Source of the DNA: Malacoraja senta
Lineage: Eukaryota
DNA: 64,000 nt
Direction: 5' to 3'
Assembly (NCBI GenBank): GCA_038087875.1
Contig: CM075988.1
Span: 806,001 to 870,000 of the forward strand
This document shows positions 521 through 51,510 of this stretch, piece after piece. The stretch's first letter is position 1; each line of letters starts with the position of its first letter. The position numbers and the translations under genes were made by a program. Below the pieces are notes generated by a model. That model made no database searches. It was not told where the DNA came from and saw only the letters and a program-made list of their open reading frames with translations.

Positions 521-708
521 AAGTGGATAACCTCACATTTATCCACATTAAACTTCATCAGCCATGCATCTGCCCACTCCCCCAACCTGTCCAAGTCACC
601 CTGCACTCTCATAGCATCCACCTCACAGTTCACTCTGCCACCCAGTTTTGTGTCATCTGCAAATTTGCTAATGTTACTTTGAATTCCTTCATCCAAATCA
701 TTGATGTA

Positions 709-2324
709 CAGTGGCTTGCAAAAGTTTTCATACCCCTTGAACTTTTCCACATTTTGTCACGTTACAACCACAAACGTAAATGTATTTTATTGGGATTTTA
801 TGTGATAGACCAACACAAAGTGGTGCATAATTGTGAAGTGGAAGGAAAATGATACATGGTTTTCAAATGTTTTTACAAATAAAAAAATGAAAAGTGTCGC
901 GTGCAAAAGTATTCAGCCCCCCTGAGTCAATACTTTGGAGAACCACCTTTCGCTGCAATTACAGCTGCAAGTCTTTTGGGGTATGTCTCTACCAGCTTTG
1001 CACATCTAGAGACTGAAATTTTTGCCCATTCTTCTTTGCAAAATAGCTCAAGCTCAGTCAGATTGGATGGAGAGCGTCTGTGAACAGCAATTTTCAAGTC
1101 TTGCCAGAGATTCTCAATTGGATTTAGGTCTGGACTTTGACTGGGCCATTCTAACATATGAATATGCTTTGATCTAAACCATTCCATTGTAGCTCTGGCT
1201 GTATGTTTAGGGTCATTGTCCTGCTGGAAGGTGAACCTCCACCCCAGTCTCAAGTCTTTTGCAGACTCTAACAGGTTTTCTTCCAAGATTGCCCTGTATT
1301 TGGCTCCATCCATCTTCCCATCAACTCTGACCAGCTTCCCTGCCCCTGCTGAAGAAAAGCATCCCCACAGCATGATGCTGCCACCACCATGTTTCACAGT
1401 GGGGATGGTGTGTTCAGGGTGATGTGCAGTGTTAGGTTTCCGCCACACATAGCGTTTTGCATTTAGGCCAAAAACTTCAATTTTGGTCTCATCTGACCAG
1501 AGCACCTTCCTCCACATGTTTGCTGTGTCCCCCACATGGCTTGTGGCAAACTGCAAACGGGACGTCTTATGGCTTTTTTTCAACAATGGTTTCTTCTTGC
1601 CACTCTTCCATAAAGGCCCGATTTGTGGAGTACACGACTAATAGTTGTCCTGTGGACAGATTCTCCCACCTGAGCTGTGGATCTCTGCAGCTCCTCCAGA
1701 GTTACCATGGGCCTCTTGGCTGCTTCTCTGATCAATGCTCTCCTTGCCCAGCCCATCAGTTTAGGTGGACGGCCATGTCTTGGTAGGTTTGCAGTTGTGC
1801 CATACTCTTTCCATTTTCTGATGATGGATTGAACAGTGCTCCGTGAGATGTTCAAAGCTTGGGATGGTTTTTTATAACCTAACCCTGCTTTAAACTTCTC
1901 CACAACTTTATCCCTGACCTGTCTGGTGTGTTCCTTGGGCTTCATGATGCTGTTTGTTCACTAATGTTCTCTAACAAACCTCTGAGGCCTTCACAGAACA
2001 GCTGTATTTATACTGAGATTAGATTACACACAAGTGGACTCTAGTTACTAATTAGGTGACTTCGGAAGGCAATTGGTTGCACTGGATTTTATTTAGGGGT
2101 ATCAGAGTAAAGGGGGCTGAATACTTTTGCACGCGACACTTTTCAGTTTTTTATTTGTAAAAAAATTTGAAAACCATGTATCATTTTCCTTCCACTTCAC
2201 AATTATGCGCCACTTTGTGTTGGTCTATCACATAAAATCCCAATAAAATACATTTACGTTTGTGGTTGTAACATGACAAAATGTGGAAAAGTTCAAGGGG
2301 TATGAATACTTTTGCAAGCCACTG
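709..2324 (-). mobile_element. Full-length Tc1/mariner transposon, Passport (PPTN)-like, IR/DR type
   Basis: TA TSD at 707-708 and 2325-2326. ~214 bp near-identical TIRs starting CAGTGGCTTGCAAAAGT, each with an inner direct repeat (gcaaaagtattcagccccc). Internal transposase present. Confidence 0.97.
927..1945 (-). pseudogene. Tc1 DD34E transposase with a single 1 bp frameshift near 1590
   Basis: ORF 1580-1945 (paired-like DNA-binding domain, GRPPK) plus ORF 927-1586 (WSDETK, QQDNDPKH, SPDLNPIE; 34 residues between D and E). Restoring one base in RRKPLL gives 339 aa. Confidence 0.95.
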
Positions 2325-17585: not shown

Positions 17586-18229
17586 AATAGAAACAGAAAA
17601 TACAAGAAATATCTTGCAGGTCATGCAACATTTGTGAACAAACTACAGAATCTCTTCTCACCGATGGCACCAAAACATAATCACTTCCAACATTATTTTG
17701 TCGTTAAATTCAGTTTTCTAGCATCGGTAGCCTTTTTTTGTGGAAACCAAAGGAAGTAGTTGAGACATGTACAAAAACAACACTTAAAATACATTTGGAT
17801 AGTTATATGGATAGGATAGGTTTACAGGGTTATAGGCCAAATGCAGACTTCTTTGTCGGCATGGATGAGTTGTCCTGAGGGACCGGTTTCTGTGCCGTAC
17901 GGTTCTATGAAACAAATACATGCAAAGTGTTGGTGTAACTTTTTTGTCTCCTTTTTCTTAATGCCATGATGATGATCAGAGGCCTAATTCCTGTGTTCTG
18001 CTCGTCACAACCTACAGAGCCCTCTTTTAAACCTGTCTCGGCAGCCAGCACCTTATGGCTACAAGTGTATGATTGAGATACAACGCACTTCATCGTCACC
18101 AATGGAGAAGCCCCTCCACCTCTCTCTTCTCCACACATTGTCTCCTGAAAATATGCCACGCTGCACCCCAAACCTTTCTGAAGGCTTAAGGTAGCGAGAG
18201 AGAGAGAGAGAAAGCAAGGCCTATATGAA

Positions 18230-18570
18230 GTTAGAGAAGTCAATGTTCATACCAATGGGGTGTAAACTACCCAAGCGAAATATGAGGTGCTGTTCTTCCA
18301 TCCCATGCGAAATATGAGGTCCTGTTCCTCCAAAACCTTGCCCTTGCTTTCTCTCTCCATCCCCTTCCCCTTCCCAGTTCTCCCACTAGTCTTACTGTCT
18401 CTGACTAGATTCCATCTTTGTTCCGCCCCCTCCCCTGACATCAGTCAGAAGAAGGGTCTCGACCCGAAACATTGCCCATTCCTTCTCTCCAGATGCTGCC
18501 TCACCCGCTGAGTTACCCCAGCATTTTGTGTCTACCTTCGATTTCAACCAGCATCTGCAGTTCTTTCTAT
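18230..18570. mobile_element. Penelope-like element fragment (ORF end on minus, pLTR with degenerate hammerhead-like motif on plus)
   Basis: LEEQ.LIFR.G peptide on minus. cagaagaagggtctcgacccgaaac near 18446. Confidence 0.75.
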
Positions 18571-20682: not shown

Positions 20683-20868
20683 AAGAAAGAACTGCAGATG
20701 CTGGTTTAAATCGAAAGTAGATACAAAATGCTGGAATAACTCAGACAGGCAGCATCTCTGGAGAGAAGGAATAGGTGACGTTTCGGGTCTGAAGGGCTGA
20801 AACGTCGTCCATTCCTTCTCTCCAGAGATGCTGCCTGTCCCGTTGAGTTACTCCAGCATTTTGTGTCT
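20683..20868. mobile_element. Inverted pair of Penelope-like pLTR fragments
   Basis: Arms at about 20718-20785 and 20797-20868 are reverse complements, meeting at hammerhead-like remnants. Confidence 0.8.
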
Positions 20869-21964: not shown

Positions 21965-23620
21965 ATAGAATCATAGTCATACAGCACTGAAAGAAACCCT
22001 TTGGTCTAACTTGCCCATCCAGACCAAGATGCCTCAACTATATTAATCCCACTGGCCCATGTTTGGCCCATATTCCTCTAAGCTGTTCATATCCATGTAC
22101 CCGTTCACATGTCTTTTAGATGTTATTGGAGTACCTGCCTCAACCACCTCCTCCAGCAGGTTGTTCCATATACCCTCCACCCTCTGTGAAAAAAAGTTGC
22201 CCCTCAGGATCCTATTAAATCTTTCCTCTCTCCTGAAACCTATGGCCTCTGGATCATGATTCTCCTATTCTGGGTAAAAACTGTGCATTCATCATATCTA
22301 TCATGATAATCATCTCCGTCATTTTATACACCTCCATAAGATCAGCCTTCAGCCTCCTGCGGTCCAAGGAATAAAGTCCTAGGCTGCCCAACATCTCCCT
22401 ATTGCTCAGGCTCTCATGTCCTGGCAACATCCTCATAAATCTTCTCTGCACTGTCTCCAGCTTAACCACATACTTCCAATGGCAGGGTGACCAAAATAAC
22501 ACATTACTCCAAATTTGGCCTCAACAACATCTTGTACAACTGTAACATAACATCCCAACTTCTATACTCTGAAAAGGGTCTTGTCTCAAAACATCACCTA
22601 TCCATGTCCTCCAGAGATGCTGCCTGACCCGCTGAGTTACTCCAGTACTTTAGGTCCTTTGCTAGTTCAGTTCTATACTCAATATCCTGACTGATGCGGG
22701 CCAATATACGGAAAACCTTCTTGACGTCCCGATCTACCTTTGAAGCTATTTTTAGGGATCTATGTACCTGCACTCCTAGATCCCTCTGGTCTACAACACT
22801 TCCCAGGGCCCAGTTTTTCATTATGAAGATCCTACCATGCTTTGACTTCCCAAAATGCAACCTCTAGCACTTTTCGGCGTTAAACTGCATTAACCATTTC
22901 TCTGCAGCACGCCCAGCTGATCGATATCCTGCTGTAATATTTTGACAAACATCTTCACTATTTACAATACCACTCACTTTAGTGTCAGCTGTGACTTATT
23001 AATCATGCATTCTACATTGTCATCCAAATCATTGATACAAATCCCAACTTGCCCAGCACCGTTCTCTGAGGCACACCACTGGTCACCATACAAAAAAACC
23101 TTCACAATCATCCTCTGCTTTCTTCCACCAATCAGTTCTCTATCCAGTCGGCTAGCTCTCCCTGGATCCCATGCAATCTAACCTACCAGAGCAGCTTCTC
23201 ATGCACAACCGTATCAAAGATTTTGCTGGTCCAAATAGACAACATATTTGGCTTTGCCCTCATCAATGTTTTCAGCTACTTCTTCAAAAGACTCAAACAG
23301 TTCCATAAGACACAATCTCCCATGTGCAAAACCATCCCGAAGCAGCCCGTCTATGCAAATGCATATATACCTTATCCCTCAGAATCCACTCCAGGAACTT
23401 TCTATGACAGATGTTTAGCTTATGGTCTACTGTTCCCAGACCTTTCCTCACAGCACTTCATAAATAGAGACATTAGCTATCTCACCTGTGACTGATGATG
23501 TTTCATAGGCTCCTGCAATTTCCTCTCTAGCTTCCCACATTGTCATCGGACATATTTGATCAGTCGGAGATTTATCTACCTTCATATATTTTAGGACATC
23601 CAGCACTACCACCACCATAA
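21965..23620 (-). mobile_element. Old degenerate CR1 with a small Penelope pLTR insert (about 22570-22660)
   Basis: ORFs 22254-22502, 22594-22860 and 23448-23666 give CR1 peptides. Confidence 0.8.
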
Positions 23621-25620: not shown

Positions 25621-26066
25621 ACGCCGGGGCAACTACACCCGGTGAGAACGGCCAGGAACATCGGGCCTCCGTAGAGGCAACTGTGGAGGCCTCAATAGGC
25701 CTGACTTTGGGTGAACTGGGGTTGGGGACTGGACATTGTGCCTTCCCCCACAGTGGTAATCATTGTGGGGGGATGATTTTGTGTGTAATGTGTAGTGTCT
25801 ATGTTAGTCTTTGTCCAAGATGGCGGTCGGAAGGGAGAGTGGACGTTGGCGCGCTTTAGCAGCCGCTGCTCTCTCTTCCATATTGTGTTTTTGATTTTTG
25901 TTTTAGGATTTAATTCTATCTTGAATTTGTGTTCTGGTGATGTCTTTGCTATTTATTTCATTCTGTTTATATGTTTCTACACTATTTGTTAAACTTTGTA
26001 AGGTGTCCTTGAGACTTTGTGAAATGCGCCCATAAATAAAATCTATTATTATTATTATTATTAATA
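25621..26066 (+). mobile_element. Non-autonomous retroposon fragment(s) with (ATT)n tail
   Basis: cccataaataaaa then (tat)n. Flanked by the repeated tataaaccaatatg, a probable TSD. Confidence 0.6.
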
Positions 26067-27129
26067 TTATAAACCAATATGTGTGGTGTTATAAAACCAA
26101 TATTATAAACCAATATGTATGGTGTGTGTGTAACCTTGGCATAAAGTTGCTTTAGCTGGAACATAATGGTGGCAGGACAGCTGAGAGATTAAAGTTAAAT
26201 TTAAGGGTGGCGAGTCAAAGAGAGAGATATGAGGGGAATGTAAAGTTTAATAAGACTGAACCAAGGTCGGAAGTAATGGTGACGAGACAGTGAATGTTAG
26301 AATTGACGATATTTTGATGCGAAAGGAGTACAGCATGTAAGATAATGTAGCAGAAGATAAGGCTGAAAACTGTAATAGAAAGCTGCTTGTTTCTGTGGAT
26401 CAGAGAGCAATTAGAGAGCAGACAGGTGGTGTCATCTCTGAATGTTCCAAGCTGAATATTAGCAAATAAAGGCTTTTCGTCTTCTTGAAGAATTCTCCGT
26501 GTCATCTTATCCAAACTTTGAGTCTTAAAACCACGACAATGCTCATCACATGTTAACCCACTCATTCCAGGGATCATTCTAAAAAATTTCCACTGGACCC
26601 TCTCATGCGCTCTCGAAATAAATGCTAGCATTGCATTTGTCTTCCTTACTTACTACCAATTCGACTTGAAGTTATTTTTTTGTGAATCCTGCACCAGCAC
26701 TCCCAAGTCTCTCTGCACCTCCGATTTCTGAATTATTTCCCCATTTAGAAAATAGTCTACGCCTTTATTCCTGCTACCAAAATACACGATTCCACATTTT
26801 GCTCCGCTGTATTCCATCTGCCACTTCTCTGCCCACTCTCCCAACCTGTCCAAGTCCAGTAGAGTTCCTGCTTTTTCTACACTACCTGCCCCTCCACCTA
26901 TCTTCGTATCACCTGCAAACATGGCCACAAAGCCTTCAATCCCCTGATGCAGTGTTGGCAGGTTGCCCGAGCAAGTGTGAGGGGGAGAGTGGGGCCACAC
27001 ATAAACTGGACAGCTCATATACCGCCTGCATACCTCACTACCCAATGGTATCAACATTAGTCTCAACTTCAAGTAATCCCCCTTCCCCCTCTCTCTCCCT
27101 CTCCCCCTCCCCCTCCTCCTCCCCCTCCC

Positions 27130-27570
27130 TCTCCCGCCTCCGGAGAGGACGCGCCGTTGCCCGGGCGACCACGGGCCGCAAATAGCCGATCAACGCAGCC
27201 GAGCCCCGATTTCACCGCCAGCCGGCGGCCCGGGCTTTGGTCATTTATGCACGGCCGTGGCAGACGCCTCTGCCCTCCCGTTCCTGGCTAGGCTAGGCCA
27301 GGCCCGGCTAGGCTAACCCCTTCCCCCGTGGCCGCGCTCCCAGCGCCGCGCAAATCCCACCTTCCTCCCGCTCGGTTCACGGCCCGCGTCCACGCGCCTG
27401 CGCACGGGGACTCTTAGTAATGTGCGGGGTACTTTCCACGGCGCGGTGCATGGCGGGTGATCCGACGGCCATTGCAGCGTAGAGGCACCGGCTGGCAGCG
27501 CCCAGCGCCTGTCCCAAATGCTGACCGGTGCATCAATTGAGGGGGTGTGGCGCATTCCGATAAGCGGTAG
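27130..27570. promoter_or_regulatory. CpG-island promoter-like region (copy 1) with X-box and NRF1 motifs; candidate TMEM107 promoter / 5' UTR exon
   Basis: CpG-dense sequence not resembling the other repeats. GTTGCCCGGGCGAC at 27156-27169 and GCGCCTGCGCA at 27394-27404. Possible minus-strand donor CG|GTGAAA at 27215. Confidence 0.6.
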
Positions 27571-27743
27571 TGCACATTTTCATCTGCAATCGTGCAATAC
27601 ACAATTTTGTGATCTCAGATAAAACCCAAGGGTCCGTACTTAGGATAGAATTCTGGAAGATCAAATAATGAAGAATACAAAGAATTCTTCAGCATCTTAA
27701 AGCCTGAAGAATAACTAGGGAGAAAATAAGGACATCAACAATA

Positions 27744-28673
27744 AGCGAGTTCAGTATTCCAAATGCGCATGCCCAGGTCATAGGTCACTCGCAATAAACA
27801 CTCTCGGCAACCGTCTGAAGAAGGGTTTCGGCCCGAAACGTTGCCTATTTCCTTCGCTCCATAAATGCTACTGCACCCGCTGAGTTTCTCCAGCATTTTT
27901 GTGTACCTTTGATTTTCCAGCAACTGCAGTTCCTTCTTTAACACTCTCGGCAACCGTGCCGCCACATGCACACAGACCTGCGCCTCAACCGCAGCCAGGA
28001 TCGAACCCGGGTGTCCGGCGCCACAATCGCTGCTGCACCGCCATTGGACCATCCCCGTCCCCTCCCGAGTGCCCCACCCCCGTCCGGGGGTGGCCGGAGA
28101 CCCCAGACCGACCGTAGTCAGACGGGAGCGGCGGCCCAAGCTCACAGCCAATGCGGAGATGAAGCGCCAAACCCAGCTGAATTCTGCAAGTCCCGCCGGG
28201 TTAACCAACAGCCCTGGACTGACGGGAGTGGCGGCCCAGGCTTACAGCCAGCGCGGAGAAGAAGCATTAACTCCAGCTAAACTCTGCCTGTCCCGCCGGG
28301 TTAACCAACAGCCCTGGACGGACGGGAGTCCGTGGCTGTCAGTTAACATGGTGGGGCAGGTTGAGTTGAGATGGAGTTAGCGCTTCTTCTCCGCGCTGGC
28401 TTTGGGCCTGGGCCGCCGCTCCTGTCTGACTACGGTCGGTCCGAGGTCGCCCCGGACGTCTCCGGCCCCCCTGGACAGGGGTGGGGCACTCGAGAGGGAA
28501 CGAGGATGGTCCAGTGGCAGCGCTTGCGGCACCAGACACCCGGGTTCGGTCCTGGCTGTGGATGAGGTGCAGGTCTGTGTGCATGCGGCGGCCCGGTTGC
28601 CGAGAGTGTTTATCGCGAGTGACCTTTGACAAATCCCATGATTCTTTGCGTATTTCGGAATACTGAACTCGCT
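27744..28673. mobile_element. Foldback-like non-autonomous DNA element with long imperfect inverted arms (copy 1)
   Basis: Termini AGCGAGTTCAGTATTCC / GGAATACTGAACTCGCT flanked by TA on both sides. Arms are reverse-complement similar over several hundred bp. Internal 100 bp tandem (28121, 28221, 28321). Confidence 0.8.
27815..27939 (+). mobile_element. Penelope-like pLTR fragment starting at a hammerhead-like core (duplicate at 31980-32104)
   Basis: CTGAAGA-a-GGGTttcgGCCC-GAAACGTT. 18 bp TSD AACACTCTCGGCAACCGT at 27797-27814 and 27940-27957. Confidence 0.85.
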
Positions 28674-29610
28674 TATATTGTCTACGTGTGGAGCCACGGG
28701 AAACGGGCAAAGTTAAATTGTTTCCCTTGCTATTTACCTGGAGAAAGACATGGAAGCTCGACAACTCGGAGAACTTACAAGTAATGCCTTGAAGAAAGTT
28801 CATATTACAGAAGAGGAGGTGCAGGAAACCTTAAAATATTAACGTAGATACATGCCTGGGACATGATTAAGTGCATTTGACCTGATCAAGGACTGTGGGA
28901 AGCAAGGCCCTGGCGGATTCATTTGCATCAACTGGTAAGATGCTGGAAAATTGGAGGTTAGGTAACGTTGGCCTATATTTCAGAAAGGCTGTAAAGTAAA
29001 GGATGGAACTACAGGCTGGTGACAACATTAATGGTGGGTAAGTTATTGGAGGGAATTCTGATAGTATTTATTTGCATTTGGGTAAGCAAGGACCAATTGA
29101 GTAAGAGTTAGGATGTCACGTTTCAGTTTTGGATCAGACATTAAAGTGATTGCAGCTGGAATATCTTGAGCAGTCTGGTTGCCATACTATAGGAAGGATG
29201 TGATTCAGCCAAAATGGGTTCAGAAAAGATTCACAAGAATATTACCAGAACTGGAGGATTAGAGTTATAAAGAACGACTGGATAGGCAGGGTCTTTATTT
29301 CCTGGAGCGTATGAAGCTGAGGTGTGATTAGTTGATCAGAGATAGGGGCTGGTCTGTTAATGTCAGAGTGATAATGTCGAAACAGTCCCTTCAGCCCAAC
29401 GTCCACACCGGCCAACATGCCCCAGTTACACTAGTCCGACCTGCCAGCATTTGGTCCAGATCTCTCCAAACCTATCCTATCCTTGTATCTGTCTGTTTCT
29501 TAAATGTTGTGATAGTCCCTGCCTCAACTACGTCCCCTGGCAGCTTTTTCCATACATCCATCACCCTTTGTGTGAAAAAATAGGAAGGAGGGGGACAAGG
29601 ATAGTAAGCT

Positions 29611-30982
29611 TTTTTATTTTTTTTATTTTTATTAGGTCATACACAGTAGTATAAACCAAGAATAATAAAATACATTTCATGTACAACTTCTTGTTTTTAA
29701 ATTTAATAATAAAAAAGTAGAAGCAAAAAGAGAGAAAAAGAAGGTTCGGTAAGGTGGTGAGAGTGATAGTTTGTGAAAAAGTACAAGAAAAAGAGAGAGA
29801 AGACAAAAAAAAGATAAAATAAATAAATAAATAAATAAAAAGATAAAAGGGATATACCTGCTTCGTATCTTTGCGCACCCCTCACCCGGTTCTGAAACAG
29901 TTCATTTCCAAGGTTATGTTGCACCATATGCTTGTAATAAATCGATAAAGGAAGACCAAATCTTTAAGAATTGGTCTGATTTGCCTGCTAGGACGAATCT
30001 CATAACTTCTAGGTGTAACATTTCAGACATGTTTGAAATCCACATTTTAAGCGTTGGTGTTGGTGCATTTTTCCAGAATTTTAATATGTTTTTTTGCCGT
30101 TATTAAGCCATAATTAAGGAAACTCTTTTGGAACGAAGTCAGCTCAGAGCCGACCTCCATTGATCCAAAGATAATCAGTTCTGCGTTGGGGTTCAATTTT
30201 ATTTTAAATAGTTTGTAAAAATTTCAAAAATTTCCTTCCAAAACTTCTGAAGTTTTATGCAAAAGACAAAAGTGTGTGCTGTAGTTGCATCTTGAGATGA
30301 GCATTTATCGCAGATGGGAGACACATTTGGAAACATTTTATTCAGTTTAGTTTTTGAGTAATATAATCGATGTAAAGTTTTGAATTGAATTAAAGTATGT
30401 CTTACATTAACCGAACATTTATGTACATATAGCAAATATTTATCCCATCTGTCTTTCGAGATATTTATATAGTTCTTGTTCCCAATCTCTTCTAATTGCA
30501 TCAGATGGTGGTATCTCTATGTTTAAAATTATATTATACAAATATGATATTAAATTAGTTGAGTCTGCCTCTGTTCATAGCTTCATCTAATATATCTGAA
30601 GTCGAAGTTTTATGTTCTTGTGTATGTTTTTTCAAGTAGTCACGGATTTGAAGGTATTTAAAGTATTGATTACTTTTCAGGTTGTATTTAAGCTGTAGTT
30701 GTTGGAATGATAAAAGGTTTCCCATTTCATACATATCTCAAACGTTTTAATTCCTATTCTTTCCCAAAGTGTAAACGTTTTGTCGATAATAGATGGTTTA
30801 AACGACGGATTATTAACAATAGGAGAAAGAAGCGATAGAATTCTTAATTTGAAAGTTAATTTTATTTGTTTCCAAGTTCGTATTGTACTATGAATAATTG
30901 GATTTTTCTTGTAAATTGTATTCAGTTTTATCGGTGAAAGAAGGATCGCTCCTATATTAAAAGGAGAGCAATCCTCTCTCTC
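29611..30982 (-). mobile_element. L1 3' part, truncated by the duplication junction
   Basis: Poly-T, then L1 ORF2 C-terminal CCHC region (PICDKC...H.FVFC). Confidence 0.9.
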
Positions 30983-31304
30983 ATACAACATTTTGCTCTG
31001 CTGTATTCCATCTGCCACTTCTCTGCCCACTTTCCCAACCTGTCCAAGTCCTGTAGAGTTCCTGCTTTTTCCACACTACCTGCCCCTCCACCTATCTTCG
31101 TATCACCTGCAAACATGGCCACAAAGCCTTCAATCCCCTGATGCAGTGTTGGCAGGTTGCCCGAGCAAGTGTGAGGGGGAGTGGGGCCACACATAAACTG
31201 GAGGGACAGCTCATATACCGCCTGCGTACCTCAACACCCAATGGTATCAACATTAAAGTCTCAACTTCAAGTAATCACCATCTCCCCCTCCCCCTCCCCC
31301 TCCC

Positions 31305-31740
31305 CCTCCCGCCTCCGGAGAGGACGCGCCGTTGCCCGGGCGACCACGGGCCGCAAATAGCCGATCAACGCAGCCGAGCCCCTATTTCACCGCCAGCCGG
31401 CGGCCCGGGCTTTGGTCATTTATGCACGGCCGTGGCAGACGCCTCTGCCCTCCCGTTCCTGCCCCGGCCCGGCTAGGCTATCCCCTTCCCCCGTGGCCGC
31501 GCTCCCAGCGCCGCGCAAATCCCACCTTCCTCCCGCTCGGTTCACGGCCCGCGTCCACGCGCCTGCGCACGGGGACTCTTAGTAATGTGCGGGGTACTTT
31601 CCACGGCGCGGTGCATGGCGGGTGATCCGATGGCCATTGCAGCGTAGAGGCACCGGCTGGCAGCGCCCAGCGCCTGTCCCAAATGCTGACCGGTGCATCA
31701 ATTGAGGGGGTGTGGCGCATTCCGATAAGCGGCAGTGCAC
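31305..31740. promoter_or_regulatory. CpG-island promoter-like region (copy 2)
   Basis: X-box-like motif 31331-31344 and NRF1 motif 31559-31569 are retained. Confidence 0.55.
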
Positions 31741-31908
31741 ATTTTCATCTGCAATCGTGCAATACACAATTTTGTGATCTCAGATAAAACCCAAGGGTCC
31801 GTACTTAGGATAGAATTCTGGAAGATCAAATAATGAAGAATACAAAGAATTCTTCAGCATCTTAAAGCCTGAAGAATAACTAGGGAGAAAATAAGGACAT
31901 CAACAATA

Positions 31909-32838
31909 AGCGAGTTCAGTATTCCAAATGCGCATGCCCAGGTCATAGGTCACTCGCAATAAACACTCTCGGCAACCGTCTGAAGAAGGGTTTCGGCCCG
32001 AAACGTTGCCTATTTCCTTCGCTCCATAAATGCTACTGCACCCGCTGAGTTTCTCCAGCATTTTTGTGTACCTTTGATTTTCCAGCAACTGCAGTTCCTT
32101 CTTTAACACTCTCGGCAACCGTGCGGCCACATGCACACAGACCTGCGCCTCAACCGCAGCCAGGATCGAACCCGGGTGTCCGGCGCCACAATCGCTGCTG
32201 CACCGCCATTGGACCATCCCCGTCCCCTCCCGAGTGCCCCACCCCGGTCCGGGGGCGGCCGGAGACCCCAGACCGACCGTCGTCAGACGGGAGCGGCGGC
32301 CCAAGCTCACAGCCAACACGGAGATGAAGTGCCAACCCCAGCTGAATTCTGCAAGTCCCGCCGGGTTAACCAACAGCCCTGGACTGACGGGAGTGGCGGC
32401 CCAGGCTTACAGCCAGCGCGGAGAAGAAGCATTAACTCCAGCTAAACTCTGCCTGTCCCGCCGGGTTAACCAACAGCCCTGGACGGACGGGAGTCCGTGG
32501 CTGTCAGTTAACATGGTGGGGCAGGTTGAGTTGAGATGGAGTTAGCGCTTCTTCTCCGCGCTGGCTTTGGGCCTGGGCCGCCGCTCCCGTCTGACTACGG
32601 TCGGTCCGGGGTCGCCCCGGTCGTCTCCGGCCCCCCTGGACAGGGGTGGGGCACTCGAGAGGGAACGAGGATGGTCCAGTGGCAGCGCTTGCGGCACCAG
32701 ACACCCGGGTTCGGTCCTGGCTGTGGATGAGGTGCAGGTCTGTGTGCATGCGGCGGCCCGGGTGCCGAGAGTGTTTATCGCGAGTGACCTTTGACAAATC
32801 CCATGATTCTTTGCGTATTTCGGAATACCGAACTCGCT
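31909..32838. mobile_element. Foldback-like element (copy 2)
   Basis: Duplicate of 27744-28673. Confidence 0.8.
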
Positions 32839-33274
32839 TATATTGTCTACGTGTGGAGCCACGGGAAACGGACAAAGTTAAATTGTTTCCCTTGCTATTT
32901 ACCTGGAGAAAGACATGGAAGCTCGACTACTCGGAGAACTTACCAGTAATGCCTTGAAGAAAGTTCATATTACAGAAGAGGAGGTGCAGGAAACCTTAAA
33001 ATATTAACGTAGATACATGCCTGGGACATGATTAAGTGCATTTGACCTGATTAAGGACTGTGGGAAGCAAGGCCCTGGCGGATTCATTTGCATCAACTGG
33101 TAAGATGCTGGAAAATTGGAGGTTAGGTAACGTTGGCCTATATTTCAGAAAGGCTGTAAAGTAAAGCATGGAACTACAGGCTGGTGACAACATTAATGGT
33201 GGGTAAGTTATTGGAGGGAATTCTGATAGTATTTATTTGCATTTGGGTAAGCAAGGACCAATTGAGTAAGAGTT

Positions 33275-33493
33275 TGGGTATATACTGAGGTCCGAACTGG
33301 CGGCCCAGGCCCAAAGCCAGCGCGGAGAAGAAGCGCTAACTCCATCTCAACTCAACCTGCCCCACCATGTTAACTGACAGCCACGGACCCCCTATCAGTC
33401 TGAAGAAGGGTTTCGGCCCGAAACGTTACCTATTTCCTTCGCTCCATAGATGCTGCTGCACCCGCTGAGTTTCTCCAGCATTTTTGTGTACCT
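33275..33493 (+). mobile_element. Chimeric insertion: 90 bp locally matching segment plus Penelope-like hammerhead pLTR
   Basis: 17 bp TSD CCAATTGAGTAAGAGTT (33258-33274, 33494-33510). The empty site is present in duplication copy 1 at about 29093. Confidence 0.9.
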
Positions 33494-34013
33494 CCAATTG
33501 AGTAAGAGTTAGGATGTCACGTTTCAGTTTTGGATCAGACATTAAAGTGATTGCAGCTGGAATATCTTGAGCAGTCTGGTTGCCATACTATAGGAAGGAT
33601 GTGATTCAGCCAAAATGGGTTCAGAAAAGATTCACAAGAATATTACCAGAACTGGAGGATTAGAGTTATAAAGAACGACTGGATAGGCAGGGTCTTTATT
33701 TCCTGGAGCGTATGAAGCTGAGGTGTGATTAGTTGATCAGAGATAGGGGCTGGTCTGTTAGTGTCATAGAGTGATAATGTCGAAACAGGCCCTTCAGCCC
33801 AACGTCCACACCGGCCAACATGCCCCAGTTACACTAGTCCGACCTGCCAGCATTTGGTCCAGATCTCTCCAAACCTATCCTATCCTTGTATCTGTCTGTT
33901 TCTTAAATGTTGTGATAGTCCCTGCCTCAACTACGTCCCCTGGCAGCTTTTTCCATACATCCATCACCCTTTGTGTGAAAAAATAGGAAGGAGGGTGACA
34001 AGGATAGTAAGCT

Positions 34014-36893
34014 TTTTTATTTTTTTTATTTTTATTAGGTCATACACAGTAGTATAAACCAAGAATAATAAAATACATTTCATGTACAACTTCTTGTTTT
34101 TAAATTTAATAATAAAAAAGTAGAAGCAAAAAGAGAGAAAAAGAAGGTTCGGTAAGGTGGTGAGAGTGATAGTTTGTGAAAAAGTACAAAAAAAAGAGAG
34201 AGAAGAAGACAAAAAAAAGATAAAATAAATAAATAAATAAATAAATAAAAAGATAAAAGGGATATATCTTTGCGCACCCCTCACCCGGTTCTGAAACAGT
34301 TCATTTCCAAGGTTATGTTGCACCATATGCTTGTAATAAATCGATAAAGGAAGACCAAATCTTTAAGAATTGGTCTGATTTGCCTGCTAGGACGAATCTC
34401 ATAACTTCTAGGTGTAACATTTCAGACATGTTTGAAATCCACATTTTAAGCGTTGGTGTTGGTGCATTTTTCCAGAATTTTAATATGTTTTTTTGCCGTT
34501 ATTAAGCCATAATTAAGGAAACTCTTTTGGAACGAAGTCAGCTCAGAGCCGACCTCCATTGATCCAAAGATAATCAGTTCTGCGTTGGGGTTCAATTTTA
34601 TTTTAAATACTTTTGTAAAAATTTCAAAAATTTCCTTCCAAAACTTCTGAAGTTTTATGCAAAAGACAAAAGAGTGTGCTGTAGTTGCATCTTGAGATGA
34701 GCATTTATCGCAGATGGGAGACACATTTGGAAACATTTTATTCAGTTTAGTTTATGAGTAATATAATCGATGTAAAGTTTTGAATTGAATTAAAGTATGT
34801 CTTACATTAACCGAACATTTATGTACATATAGCAAATATTTATCCCATCTGTCTTTCAAGATATTTATAGATAGTTCTTGTTCCCAATCTCTTCTAATTG
34901 CATCAGATGGTGGTATCTCTATGTTTAAAATTATATTATACAAATATGATATTAAATTAGTTGAGTCTGCCTTTCTGTTCATAGCTTCATCTAATATATC
35001 TGAAGTCGAAGTTTTATGTTCTTGTGTATGTTTTTTCAAGTAGTCACGGATTTGAAGGTATTTAAAGTATTGATTACTTTTCAGGTTGTATTTAAGTTGT
35101 AGTTGTTGGAATGATAAAAGGTTTCCCATTTCATACATATCTCAAACGTTTTAATTCCTATTCTTTCCCAAAGTGTAAACGTTTTGTCGATAATAGATGG
35201 TTTAAACGACGGATTATTAACAATAGGAGAAAGAAGCGATAGAATTCTTAATTTGAAAGTTAATTTTATTTGTTTCCAAGTTCGTATTGTACTATGAATA
35301 ATTGGATTTTTCTTGTATATTGTATTCAGTTTTATCGGTGAAAGAAGGATCGCTCCTATATTAAAAGGAGAGCAATCCTCTCTCTCCATTATTATCCAAT
35401 CTACCTGTTGGGCAGAATTGTCCAACAAGTAAATTACATTTTGATATTCATTTCCCAGTGATAGTACAAAAAATTGGGTAGTGTCAGTCCTCCAAATTCT
35501 TTGGGCTTACACAAGTGTCTTCTTTTGAATTCTGTGGGACTTATAGTCCCATATGAAATTTGTGGTATCAGAGCCGAGTTTTTTTTTAAATTTTAGGTAA
35601 ATATATTGGTATTGATTGATATAAATATAAGATTTGTGGCAAAAAAAACATTTTTATGTCATTTATTCTGCCTATTAAAGACATCGGTAGTGTTTTCCAA
35701 AATTTAATCAAAGCATTTAATTTAGTAAGTAAGGGCATATAGTTTGCATTGAATAGAGATTTATATTTTCTGGTAATTTGGATACCCAGATATTTAAATT
35801 TTTCTGTAACAATTCTAAAGGGGAATTTTAAAAGGTATGTCGGTTCTTGAGGTTTTATCGTCATAATTTCACTTTTATTCCAATTTATTCTGTATCCAGA
35901 GAAGGATCCAAATTCCTCTATTAAATTTAATATATTTGGTATGCTGATTTGCGATTTTGTAATATATAATAATACGTCGTCTGCATATAGTGATATTTTA
36001 TTATTTGAATGTTTGTATTATAACCATGGATGTTTGGATGCGTTCTTATACTTTCTGCTAAGGGTTCTATCATAAGAGCGAATAGCAGGGGTGATAGTGC
36101 ACATCCCTGTCTATTGCCCCTGGATAGTTGAAATTTCGGAGAGGGTATATTATTGGTCAGTATTCTAGCAGTCGGCTTGTCATATAATAATTTTACCCAT
36201 AAAATAAAATTCTCAGTCATTTAAAATTTTTGCAATACTTTGAAGAGATAGTCCCATTCAACCTGGTCGAATGCTTTTTCTGGTTAACGGAGAGTGATCA
36301 GAAATGATACTATTATCATATTTAGGATTCGTTGTATTAGGAATTAATTTCGTGTCCACTAAAAAATAATCGATACGTGAGTAAGTTTTATGTACCATTC
36401 AGTAAAAAGAGTATTCCCTTCCAACTGGATTAGCGATCCTCTGTTATATTTGTATTTTTTATATATGTATTTAGGAGTTCACTGGCTTTTGATTTTATGC
36501 TAAGCCTCTTTTGTTGTGTAGATTTATCCAGGTATGGATCTAAAATGTAATTGAAATCTCCCCCCATTATTACATTTTGATAATTAAGCTCTGAAATTAT
36601 ATTCAGTATTTTGTTAAAAAATTGAGGATTATCAAAATTAGGCGCATATATATTTACCATAGAAAGTGGTATAGAGTTGATTTCTCCCGTAACTATAACA
36701 TATCTCCCCTCTTTATCTGCTATGATATTCTTTGATTTAAATGGTATACCTTTACGAATGATAATTGCAGTACCTCTAGATTTAGAGATATATGAAGAGT
36801 AATATGTTTGGGCAATCCAATTTGCCTTCAGTCTGGTCTGAGCTTAAAGTTTCAGGTGTGTTTCCTGTAAGAAAATTTTGTCTGTATTAAGTG
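34014..36893 (-). mobile_element. L1 element A (ORF2, disrupted; large deletion between EN and RT at about 36280)
   Basis: NIYAPN, GGDFN, RQGCALSPLLF, FKYLGI and CCHC motifs. The EN-end sequence is joined directly to EKAFD. Confidence 0.92.
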
Positions 36894-46220: not shown

Positions 46221-48020
46221 GACGCCTCTTCTCTGTCTCTATCTCTATCTCTATCTATCTCTCCCCTATCTCCCCATCTCTCTCCCCATCTCTTTCTCCC
46301 CTCTCTCTCCATCTCCCTCTCCAACCATCTCTCTCCATCCCATCCCCCCTCCCATCCACCCCCCCTCTCCATCCATCCCCCTCTCCATCCCCCCCCTCTC
46401 TCTCTATATATATATATCCCATCTCTCCCTCTCTCTCCATCTCTCTCTCCATCCCTCTCCATCTCTCTCTCCATCTCTCTCTCCATCTCTCTCTCTCCAT
46501 CTCTCTCTCTCCATCTCTCTCTCTCCATCTCTCTCTCTCCATCTCTCTCTCCAACTCTCTCCCCATCTCTCTCTCCCCATCTCTCTCTCTCCAATCTCTC
46601 TCTCCTCCATCTATCTCTCCCTCTCCATCTATCTCTCTCCTCTCTCTCTCTCTCCATCTCTCTCTCTCTCTCCATCTCTCTCCTCTCTCTCTCCATCTCT
46701 CTCTCTCCATCTCTCTCTCTCCATCTCTCTCTCTCCATCTCTCTCTCTCCATCTCTCTCTCTCCATCTCTTCTCTCTCCATCTCTCTCTCCATCTCTCTC
46801 TTTCTCCATCTCTCCCTCTCTCTCTCTCTCTCTCTCTCCATCTCTCCTCTCTCTCCTCTCTCTCTCTCCATCTTCTCTCTCTCTCCATCTCTCTCTCTCT
46901 CTCCATCTCTCTTCTCTCTCTCCATCTCTCTCTCTCCATCTCTCTCTCTCCCTCCATCTCTCTCTCTCCTCCATCTCTCTCTCTCCCTCCATCTCTCTCC
47001 CTCCCTCCATCTCTCTCTCTCTCCCTCCATCTCCCTCTCTCTCCCTACATCTCTCTCTCCCCCCTCCATCTCTCTCCCCCCCCCCCATCTCTATCCCCCC
47101 CACATATCTCGCTCCCCCCTCCATCTCTCTCTCTCCCTCCATCTCTCTCTCTCCGTCCATCTCTCTCCCTCCCTCTCTCTCTCTCTCCATCTCTCTCTCT
47201 CCCTCCATCTCTCTCTCTCCCTCCATCTCTCTCTCCCTCCATCTCTCTCTCTCCCTCCATCTCTCTCTCCCTCCATCTCTCTCTCTCCCTCCATCTCTCT
47301 CTTTCCCTCCATCTCTCTCTCCATCTCTCTCTCTCCCTCCATCTCTCCTCTCCCCCCTCCATCTCTCTCTCCCCCCCACATCTCTCTCTCCCCCATCTCT
47401 CGCTCCCCCTCCATCCTCTCTCTCTCCCTCCATCTCTCTCTCTCCCTCCATCTCTCTCTCTCCCTCCATCTCTCTCTCTCCCTCCATCTCTCTCTCTCCC
47501 TCCATCTCTCTCTCTCCCTCCCCATCCTCTCTCTCTCCCTCCATCTCTCTCTCTCCATCTCTCTCTCTCCCTCCATCTCTCTCTCCCTCAATCTCTCTCT
47601 CTCCCTCCATCTCTCTCTCTCTCTCCATCTCTCTCTCTCTCTCCATCTCTCTCCCTCCATCTCTCTCTCTCTCCCTCCATCTCTCTCTCTCCCTCCATCT
47701 CTCTCTCTCCATCTCTCTCTCTCCATCTCTCTCTCTCCCTCCATCTCTCTCTCCCTCCATCTCTCTCTCTCCCTCCATCTCCCTCTCTCCCTCCATCTCT
47801 CTCTCTCCCTCCCTCTCTCTCTCCCTCCATCTCTCTCTCTCCCTCCATCTCTCTCTCTCTCCCTCCATCTCTCTCTCCCTCCCTCTCTCTCTCCCTCCCT
47901 CTCTCTCTCTCTCCCTCCCTCTCTCTCTCTCTCCCTCCCTCTCTCTTTCTCTCTCACTCTCTCTCTCTCCCTCTCTCTTTCTCTCTCCCTCTCTCTATCT
48001 ATCTCTCTCACCATCTCTCT
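46220..48020. repeat. 1.8 kb pyrimidine-strand simple repeat ((CT)nCCAT / CCCTCCAT units)
   Basis: Almost G-free plus strand. Source of the spurious SL-rich and ER-rich ORFs. Confidence 0.97.
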
Positions 48021-51319: not shown

Positions 51320-51510
51320 CAATGTGTTAAAGGAACTGAGTGGGTCAGGCAGCATCTGAGGAGGGAATGGACAGATGACATTTCTGGTCAGGAACCTTCA
51401 TCAATCTGAACGATCCCATCCCAAAACACCGTCTGTCCCTTACCTACTGTGAGGCTGCCTGACCCTCTGAGTTCCTCAAGCAATTTGTGTTTTGCTCAAG
51501 ATTCCAACAT
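51320..51510. mobile_element. Degenerate inverted Penelope-like pLTR pair
   Basis: aggaactgagtgggtcaggcagc ... gctgcctgaccctctgagttcct inverted arms. Confidence 0.65.

What the first reader, a model, noticed from the sequence alone, without database searches (positions are those of the whole stretch)
33258..33510. Penelope hammerhead-like repeat inserted together with an exact inverted 90 bp copy of DNA from ~0.7 kb away
Seen: a 219 bp insert between 17 bp TSDs, absent at the matching site in duplication copy 1. It consists of tgggtatatactgaggtccgaact, then 33299-33388 (exact reverse complement of 32493-32582, also 28328-28417), then a pLTR with CTGAAGA...GAAACGTT. Known: Penelope-like pLTRs carry minimal hammerhead ribozymes. 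Inferred: the reverse transcriptase or the repair step switched template onto neighbouring genomic DNA or a local transcript during integration. Empty site, filled site and donor all lie in this window.
Basis: partly seen in the sequence, partly recalled or inferred. Interest (0 to 1): 0.75.

Follow-up and report, generated by a model that had tools for sequence, protein, structure and literature searches.

The report
Penelope insertion carrying copied neighbouring DNA
A young fragment of a Penelope-type retrotransposon landed in a cartilaginous-fish genome together with a flipped 90-base copy of DNA from 0.7 kb away, starting exactly at the tip of a hairpin: a kind of accident known for L1 and R2 elements but not found in print for Penelope elements.

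Summary
The donor belongs to a multi-copy repeat family, but the insert carries letters private to the local copy. The site is empty in a second sample and two related species. Contigs of one sample break exactly at both TSD edges, which supports a real filled form only indirectly. New here: the captured piece starts at the first base after the loop of a strong hairpin, and the pLTR end matches that loop (5 of 6 bases plus a wobble). Local capture during one integration is about 85% likely. Which DNA end did the copying is open: cDNA switch 0.5, target-end fold-back or twin priming 0.33. The hammerhead has only a 2-bp stem I and no visible role. Such templated insertions are published for L1 and R2; my searches found none for Penelope elements. 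This scan noted two similar Penelope captures (0.7 and 1.1 kb) in other genomes, unchecked here.

The parts
33258..33274 (+). left target-site duplication (17 bp)
   Evidence: X1 contig ends at 33274
33275..33298 (.). 24-nt filler of unknown origin
   Evidence: longest match elsewhere in the window 9 nt; local-patchwork tests not significant; 0 hits in metagenome contigs
33299..33388 (-). exact inverted copy of the local donor 32493-32582 (or 28328-28417)
   Evidence: 90 of 90; carries locus-private letters at 33314, 33345, 33367
33387..33392 (+). switch microhomology: 5 of 6 letters shared by the donor tip and the pLTR 5' end, the sixth a G:T wobble
   Evidence: family loose ends begin at 33387; pairing check
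33389..33493 (+). 5'-truncated Penelope-like pLTR fragment (105 bp; 107 if the shared AC is counted)
   Evidence: 96.9% to 27813-27908 and 83% to 18440-18543; family continues past 33493 in hundreds of contigs
33400..33427 (+). minimal hammerhead core: CUGAAGA, extra A, 4-bp stem II, GAAAC, GUU; stem I only 2 bp
   Evidence: no Rfam hammerhead hit
33494..33510 (+). right target-site duplication; its first 6 nt can pair with the family's continuation (4 Watson-Crick + 2 wobble)
   Evidence: X1 contig ends at 33494
32493..32582 (+). nearest donor: right arm of the inner hairpin, 676 bp from the TSD
32489..32492 (.). terminal 4-nt loop of the donor hairpin; the capture starts at the next base
   Evidence: unpaired in 8 of 8 folds (two spans, both strands, RNA and DNA parameters)
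31906..32841 (.). old imperfect inverted repeat of a multi-copy, unclassified repeat family; inner hairpin about 32386-32591
   Evidence: family depth and presence of its right end in organisms B and D
28328..28417 (+). identical alternative donor in duplication copy 1
29093..29109 (+). empty target site in duplication copy 1
31962..32122 (+). earlier plain pLTR insertion with an 18-bp TSD inside the left arm (twin at 27797-27957); not the source of the new insert
   Evidence: TSD; 3 differences in 96 bp and it lacks 33389-33397
26794..35386 (+). 4.2-kb tandem duplication (26794-30982, 30988-35386), about 1.1% substitutions, non-homologous junction
18224..18570 (.). older relative: pLTR (+) joined to an inverted end of the element's ORF (-); ties the pLTR family to an RT-zinc finger-GIY-YIG protein

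Best explanation
One integration event made the whole insert. Shown: identical 17-bp TSDs, an exact empty site, a pLTR fragment and a local inverted copy. Inferred sequence of steps: (1) a Penelope (Neptune-type) protein acting in trans cut the target with a 17-nt stagger; (2) the right-hand end primed reverse transcription inside uncut pLTR RNA, helped by 6 nt of pairing; (3) after about 107 nt the cDNA came off, near the point where many family copies end; (4) its G-rich 3' end paired with the exposed loop on the bottom strand of the hairpin 0.7 kb to the left (single-stranded DNA slightly more likely than a leftward transcript); (5) the RT or a repair polymerase copied 90 nt up the arm; (6) 24 more bases came from an unknown source; (7) the end was joined to the left target end. 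The ribozyme played no part.
For: Exact anatomy. Local origin: at 33345 and 32567 the rest of the family has a different letter in 95-100% of depth in 4 of 4 runs, and at 32514 the single contigs of organisms B and D differ; the insert has the local letter at all three. Left-arm units match only 73 and 66 of 90. Empty site in X2, X3 and X9. Microhomology lies at the loop end (where a cDNA would enter) and none at the 32582 end. Hairpin: -159 kcal/mol against -75 +/- 4 for shuffles, 0 of 200 as low; the capture starts at the first base after the loop. 3' pairing: 121 of 63,989 window sites pair as well. Precedent: R2 cDNA 'snap-back' onto nearby rDNA; L1 templated insertions.
Against: One event only. 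The microhomology fits equally well as the meeting point of two products (rival 1). Eight sites within 1 kb have equal microhomology, so given microhomology the loop choice is 1 of 8, and it was noticed after the fact. The bottom strand would be destroyed by ordinary resection, so an unwound flap, sister chromatid, copy 1 or an RNA is needed (inference). The anole Penelope protein initiates without homology to the target in vitro, against the 3' pairing step. The 24-mer is unexplained. The upstream family consensus may belong to another subfamily.
Confidence: 0.5

Rival explanations
1. Same single event, but the left (reciprocal) target end did the copying. It added 24 nt, then folded back on its own top strand or primed on a rightward transcript from the nearby CpG-rich stretch. 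It copied 32582 down to the hairpin tip and annealed there to the pLTR cDNA end.
For: Predicts an upstream, inverted donor, as seen. The anole Penelope protein extends both strands. Head-to-head pLTR pairs and an inverted ORF end in this window show that inverted 5' pieces are routine for the family. L1 reciprocal ends give local inversions. CpG observed/expected is 0.93 at 31280-31720.
Against: No microhomology at 32582, where this end would have to prime. Needs about 770 nt of exposed top strand while the 17-nt overhang survives intact (inference).
Confidence: 0.33
2. A chimeric source element elsewhere (90 bp already joined to a pLTR) was retrotransposed, and the nearby donor is a coincidence.
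For: The donor type is a multi-copy family. 238 joints and 2,318 loose ends were not displayed.
Against: The insert has the local copy's private letters. Depth over 33234-33287 (75, 5.4, 16.5 and 9.4 against flanks of 36-51, 4.7, 41 and 31) leaves room for at most about 3-4 single-locus equivalents (rough, the tool warns that depth is no copy number).
Confidence: 0.06
3. Two steps: a repair event first pasted the inverted 90 bp, and a pLTR later inserted beside it.
For: Short templated inversions are a known end-joining product (search listing only).
Against: One TSD pair encloses everything, no inner duplication was found, and the empty site is perfect.
Confidence: 0.05
4. Assembly or chimeric-read artefact.
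For: Hairpins can produce fold-back reads (own knowledge).
Against: X1 contigs stop exactly at both TSD edges while X2, X3 and X9 run through. A perfect TSD with a three-part insert is not a typical artefact.
Confidence: 0.04

Closest known systems
L1 templated insertions (bioRxiv 10.1101/2024.08.27.596794, passages seen; PMC11702581, sections 7 and 13 and passages seen)
   Same: A short piece of nearby genomic DNA is built into a TSD-bounded retrotransposon insertion. Reported in 22 cases among 3,598 solo insertions, and in 3 templated plus 3 inverted cases in cell clones.
   Different: Here the element is a Penelope pLTR without a poly(A) tail in a reference sequence. The donor is 676 bp away (the L1 text says typically within 15 bp), and the capture starts at a hairpin tip. 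Their supplementary figures with the distances were not seen.
R2 'snap-back' and 'extra template' 5' junctions (PMC11371274, passages seen)
   Same: The cDNA 3' end primes extra synthesis on its own cDNA or on nearby DNA before joining the upstream target.
   Different: Engineered, site-specific R2 in human cells; joins fall mostly within 100 bp of the nick.
Penelope 5'-inverted pLTRs and host-DNA capture in Adineta vaga (PMC3846280, passages and Discussion seen; PMC8557442, passages seen)
   Same: TSD-bounded pLTR insertions with an inverted 5' piece; captured host spacers; template jumps proposed.
   Different: There the inverted piece is the element's own sequence, and captured DNA lies between pLTRs. 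Donors next to the new site are not described in the parts I read.
Poseidon of Anolis carolinensis in vitro (PMC11167929, parts 1-2 of 4 seen)
   Same: Internal initiation in the RNA, both target strands extended, hammerhead cleavage not needed.
   Different: Initiation there is without target homology, and no switch to target-flanking DNA is reported in the parts read. The family here looks Neptune-type.

Membership tests
Penelope-like element (EN+, Neptune-type) | ORF with RT and C-terminal GIY-YIG endonuclease | tested here: inconclusive
   The insert has no ORF. An 83%-identical relative at 18224-18570 carries an ORF end that matches ray proteins at 20 of 25 residues. Four of five such proteins give GIY-YIG hits below Pfam's cutoff; three inspected show YIDD-like RT motifs and Cys-pair motifs before it. 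The link is indirect.
Penelope-like element (EN+, Neptune-type) | pLTR with a minimal hammerhead motif | tested here: met
   Core boxes, extra base after position 9, G10.1-C11.1 pair and palindromic 15.2-16.2, as listed in PMC4209133
Penelope-like element (EN+, Neptune-type) | 5'-truncated copies, inverted 5' pieces, variable 3' tail, optional TSD | tested here: met
   Three distinct TSD-bounded copies (17, 18 and 10 bp), two head-to-head pairs and one inverted ORF end in the window; the family continues beyond 33493
Penelope-like element (EN+, Neptune-type) | placement in an RT phylogeny | not tested
   No RT of this subfamily was available; no tree was built
Functional minimal hammerhead ribozyme | helix I of about 4-5 bp | tested here: not met
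   Only 2 bp can form in the insert; D. virilis motifs also have 2 bp
Functional minimal hammerhead ribozyme | self-cleavage | not testable with these tools
   The MFE fold does not give the hammerhead (z = 0.54); no Rfam hammerhead hit
Templated insertion at a retrotransposon 5' junction | retroelement and foreign piece inside one TSD pair, with an empty site | tested here: met
Templated insertion at a retrotransposon 5' junction | foreign piece copied from DNA near the insertion site, donor left intact | tested here: met
   90 of 90, locus-private letters, donor present in both duplication copies
Templated insertion at a retrotransposon 5' junction | microhomology or untemplated bases at the junctions | tested here: met
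   5 of 6 plus a wobble at one junction, 24 unplaced bases at the other
Composite (amplified) repeat family | same chimeric unit at many loci | tested here: not met
   Near single-locus depth at the 24-mer edge in 4 of 4 runs; a few copies cannot be excluded

The most novel reading that the evidence does not exclude
Penelope integration in cartilaginous fish regularly resolves its free cDNA end by landing on single-stranded hairpin loops or nascent RNA up to about 1 kb away, using the element's own telomerase-like RT. In genomes with very many young pLTR copies this would be a steady source of local inverted micro-duplications, and the usual inverted 5' pLTR would be the self-directed case of the same switch.
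Probability: 0.2. Interest if true: 0.68.

Novelty: new variant of a known kind. Interest (0 to 1): 0.4.

Why it matters
How Penelope elements finish integration is not known; the in vitro study I read leaves the later steps unvalidated. This locus keeps donor, empty site and filled site side by side, and the site is empty in two related species. It shows that the 5' end of a Penelope insertion can be completed on host sequence hundreds of bases away. The pLTR family is extremely abundant in these genomes (depth five to six orders above the flank), so a census of such junctions could test which end copies, on which strand, and whether hairpin loops are preferred. As a single event it has no evident functional consequence.

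Tried and rejected
No whole genome is held, so no genome-wide census was possible. Rfam over 26000-36000 gave 6 chance miRNA-like matches and no hammerhead. Exact pattern scans found nothing: hammerhead core in viral contigs and metagenome contigs, the 24-mer in metagenome contigs. I tested whether the 24-mer is a patchwork of local pieces. Parts of it resemble the switch junction in reverse, and an 8-mer recurs 25 bp upstream, but tiling tests gave p of about 0.07-0.7 in 16 of 16 comparisons. The 8-mer was reached by 291 and 408 of 1,500 control 24-mers, and by 73 of 3,000 in the narrowest post-hoc pool. Rejected as unsupported. The neighbouring pLTR copy as source was rejected: 3 differences, and it lacks 9 upstream bases. 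Which duplication copy was the donor cannot be told. A role for ribozyme cleavage was rejected: the insert runs uninterrupted across the predicted cut after 33427, and the switch lies about 40 nt upstream. No RNA holder was listed. Pfam on two short window peptides gave 0 of 2 hits. Of 6 representative-library hits, 2 (P0004, P0005) end in the same ORF tail; the other 4 were dropped as short repeat matches. Polymorphism within organism A is not established: X2 shows only the empty, copy-1-like form but at depth about 5. Literature searches for Penelope local capture found no such report; subscription papers are not covered. Earlier-finding look-ups by sequence, by place and by one word set were blank.

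Full report
Observation. The window holds a 4.2-kb tandem duplication (26794-30982 and 30988-35386) whose copies differ by about 45 substitutions, or 1.1%. Copy 2 has one 236-bp insertion at 33258: a 17-bp duplication plus 219 bp. The two TSD copies are identical and the empty site is 29093-29109. The 219 bp are 24 unplaced bases, 90 bases that are the exact reverse complement of 32493-32582 and 28328-28417, and 105 bases of a pLTR with the hammerhead core at 33400-33427.

Is it real? I laid 4 of 24 listed runs, all contigs, on 32100-33700. In X1 (organism A) one contig ends exactly at 33274 and another exactly at 33494. These are the branch points expected in an assembly graph holding both filled and empty forms (inference; X1 may be the source sample, so it is not independent). 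X2 (organism A, another sample, depth about 5) has one contig across the empty site with six differences. Copies 1 and 2 also differ at six places there, and the four displayed carry the copy-1 letter. Organisms B (X3) and D (X9) also cross the site in one contig without the insert. No displayed piece spans the internal junctions; 275,094 pieces, 238 joints and 124 variant rows were not shown.

Is the 90 bp local? Exactness alone does not settle it: another 91-bp exact inverted match lies between two CR1 copies, and parts of the donor draw hundreds of times the flank depth. But at 33345 the family has G in 23,187 of 23,470 depth units in X1 (99% or more in X2 and X3, 98% in X9). At 32567 it has G in 95-98% in all four runs. 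At 32514 the single contigs of B and D have C. The insert carries the local letter at all three places. The left-arm units next door match only 73 and 66 of 90. Depth over 33234-33287 is near single-locus level in all four runs, which caps an amplified chimeric unit at a few copies; this is rough, since the tool warns that depth is no copy number. Contigs that match the pLTR from 33387 continue upstream with a pyrimidine tract (142 in X1, 51 in X2), not with the donor.

The donor is the right arm of an old inverted repeat (about 31906-32841) whose right end is also present in B and D. Its inner hairpin folds at -159 kcal/mol against -75 +/- 4 for shuffles (0 of 200 as low). The terminal loop is 32489-32492 in 8 of 8 folds, and the captured piece begins at 32493. 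The pLTR end and the donor tip share 5 of 6 letters across that loop, the sixth being a G:T wobble. Eight sites within 1 kb match as well, so the loop choice is suggestive, not proven. At the 3' junction the family continues with letters that pair with the first six of the TSD (4 Watson-Crick, 2 wobble); 121 of 63,989 window sites do as well. An earlier plain pLTR insertion with an 18-bp TSD sits in the left arm in both duplication copies. It is 96.9% identical but is not the source. The 24-mer stays unexplained.

Family. An older relative at 18224-18570 (83% to the insert's pLTR) carries an inverted ORF end. Two representative proteins end in the same tail. Searching with one of them gave 7 ray proteins among 23 candidates. 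Four of five scanned have sub-threshold GIY-YIG hits, and three inspected show RT and Cys-pair motifs. The window peptide matches one at 20 of 25 residues. By the clade definitions in PMC8557442 (passages) this points to a Neptune-type element; no tree was built. A cartilaginous-fish host is my inference from these hits and from recalled repeat families. The hammerhead meets the minimal-motif features of PMC4209133 (parts 1-2 of 4) except helix I, which has 2 bp. The insert runs through the predicted cut site, in line with cleavage being dispensable in vitro.

Mechanism. Shown: one TSD pair, an exact empty site, an intact local donor, junction microhomology at the hairpin loop. Inferred: the cDNA came off after about 107 nt, paired with the loop on the donor's bottom strand, was extended 90 nt, gained 24 nt and was joined to the left end (0.5). 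The main rival is that the left target end folded back on its own strand, or primed on a rightward transcript, and met the cDNA at the loop (0.33). It explains the upstream, inverted position and fits the finding that a Penelope protein extends both strands, but it has no priming homology at 32582. A distant source chimera (0.06), two steps (0.05) and an artefact (0.04) are unlikely. RT versus repair polymerase, and DNA versus RNA template, cannot be decided from one junction.

Comparison and novelty. Templated local pieces in L1 insertions are published: 22 among 3,598, described as under 250 bp and within 15 bp of the site (passages), and 3 templated plus 3 inverted cases in cell clones. R2 cDNA ends snap back onto nearby rDNA (passages). 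L1 chimeras with various RNAs are catalogued in PMC13174262 (passages). Penelope elements capture host DNA between pLTRs in a rotifer. I also read the discussion of a retrozyme preprint and passages of an L1 review; neither bears on local capture. Searches found no report of a Penelope insertion templated on DNA beside its own site. Supplementary figures of the L1 preprints, which hold the donor distances, were not seen. Two earlier notes of this scan describe similar Penelope captures at 0.7 and 1.1 kb in other genomes; I did not check them. In this window 1 of 3 distinct TSD-bounded pLTR copies has captured sequence.

Verdict. Real, young and most likely a local capture during one Penelope integration (about 0.85). 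It is a known class of event in a new element type, with an unusually distant donor and a hairpin-tip entry. Interest 0.4.

Noticed in passing
window 31906-32841 and 27741-28676: Old inverted repeat with tRNA-like ends (recalled resemblance to a shark SINE head) and a 100-bp internal unit. Other family members also show opposite-strand joints, so the family may form palindromes habitually. Unclassified.
   Followed up: partly
window 30982-30988: The duplication junction joins an L1-like piece to a CR1-like piece without long homology, which favours a true tandem duplication over two haplotypes placed in tandem; not tested with reads.
   Followed up: partly
window 33394-33398: In all four runs 137-282 contigs per displayed row leave the pLTR here with unrelated upstream letters (agreement 0.32-0.41). 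This suggests a hotspot of 5' truncation just before the hammerhead core; the copy at 27813 starts there too.
   Followed up: no
window 20683-20868 and 51331-51490: Head-to-head pLTR pairs of an older subfamily.
   Followed up: partly
window 22560-22680: Plain pLTR insertion of another subfamily with a 10-bp TSD and no extra sequence.
   Followed up: partly
window 31280-31720 (and 27130-27560): CpG-island-like stretch (GC 0.70, CpG observed/expected 0.93) inside the duplicated unit, among decayed repeats; a possible promoter.
   Followed up: no
window 521-2306: Tc1/mariner-like element (by reading of the ORFs at 927-1637 and 1580-1957, minus strand) with long inverted ends (exact inverted matches 727-921 against 2112-2306).
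   Followed up: no
window 33428: The insert has A where about 70-87% of family depth has G, at the base after the predicted cleavage triplet.
   Followed up: no
P0004, P0005, P0007, P0012, P0013: Public gene models of host genes end in, or include, the Penelope endonuclease tail, and some carry host-gene names (such as 'mucin-2' for P0010) while being Penelope ORFs: mis-annotation or exonisation.
   Followed up: no
window 46230-48020: 1.8-kb CT-rich compound microsatellite.
   Followed up: no
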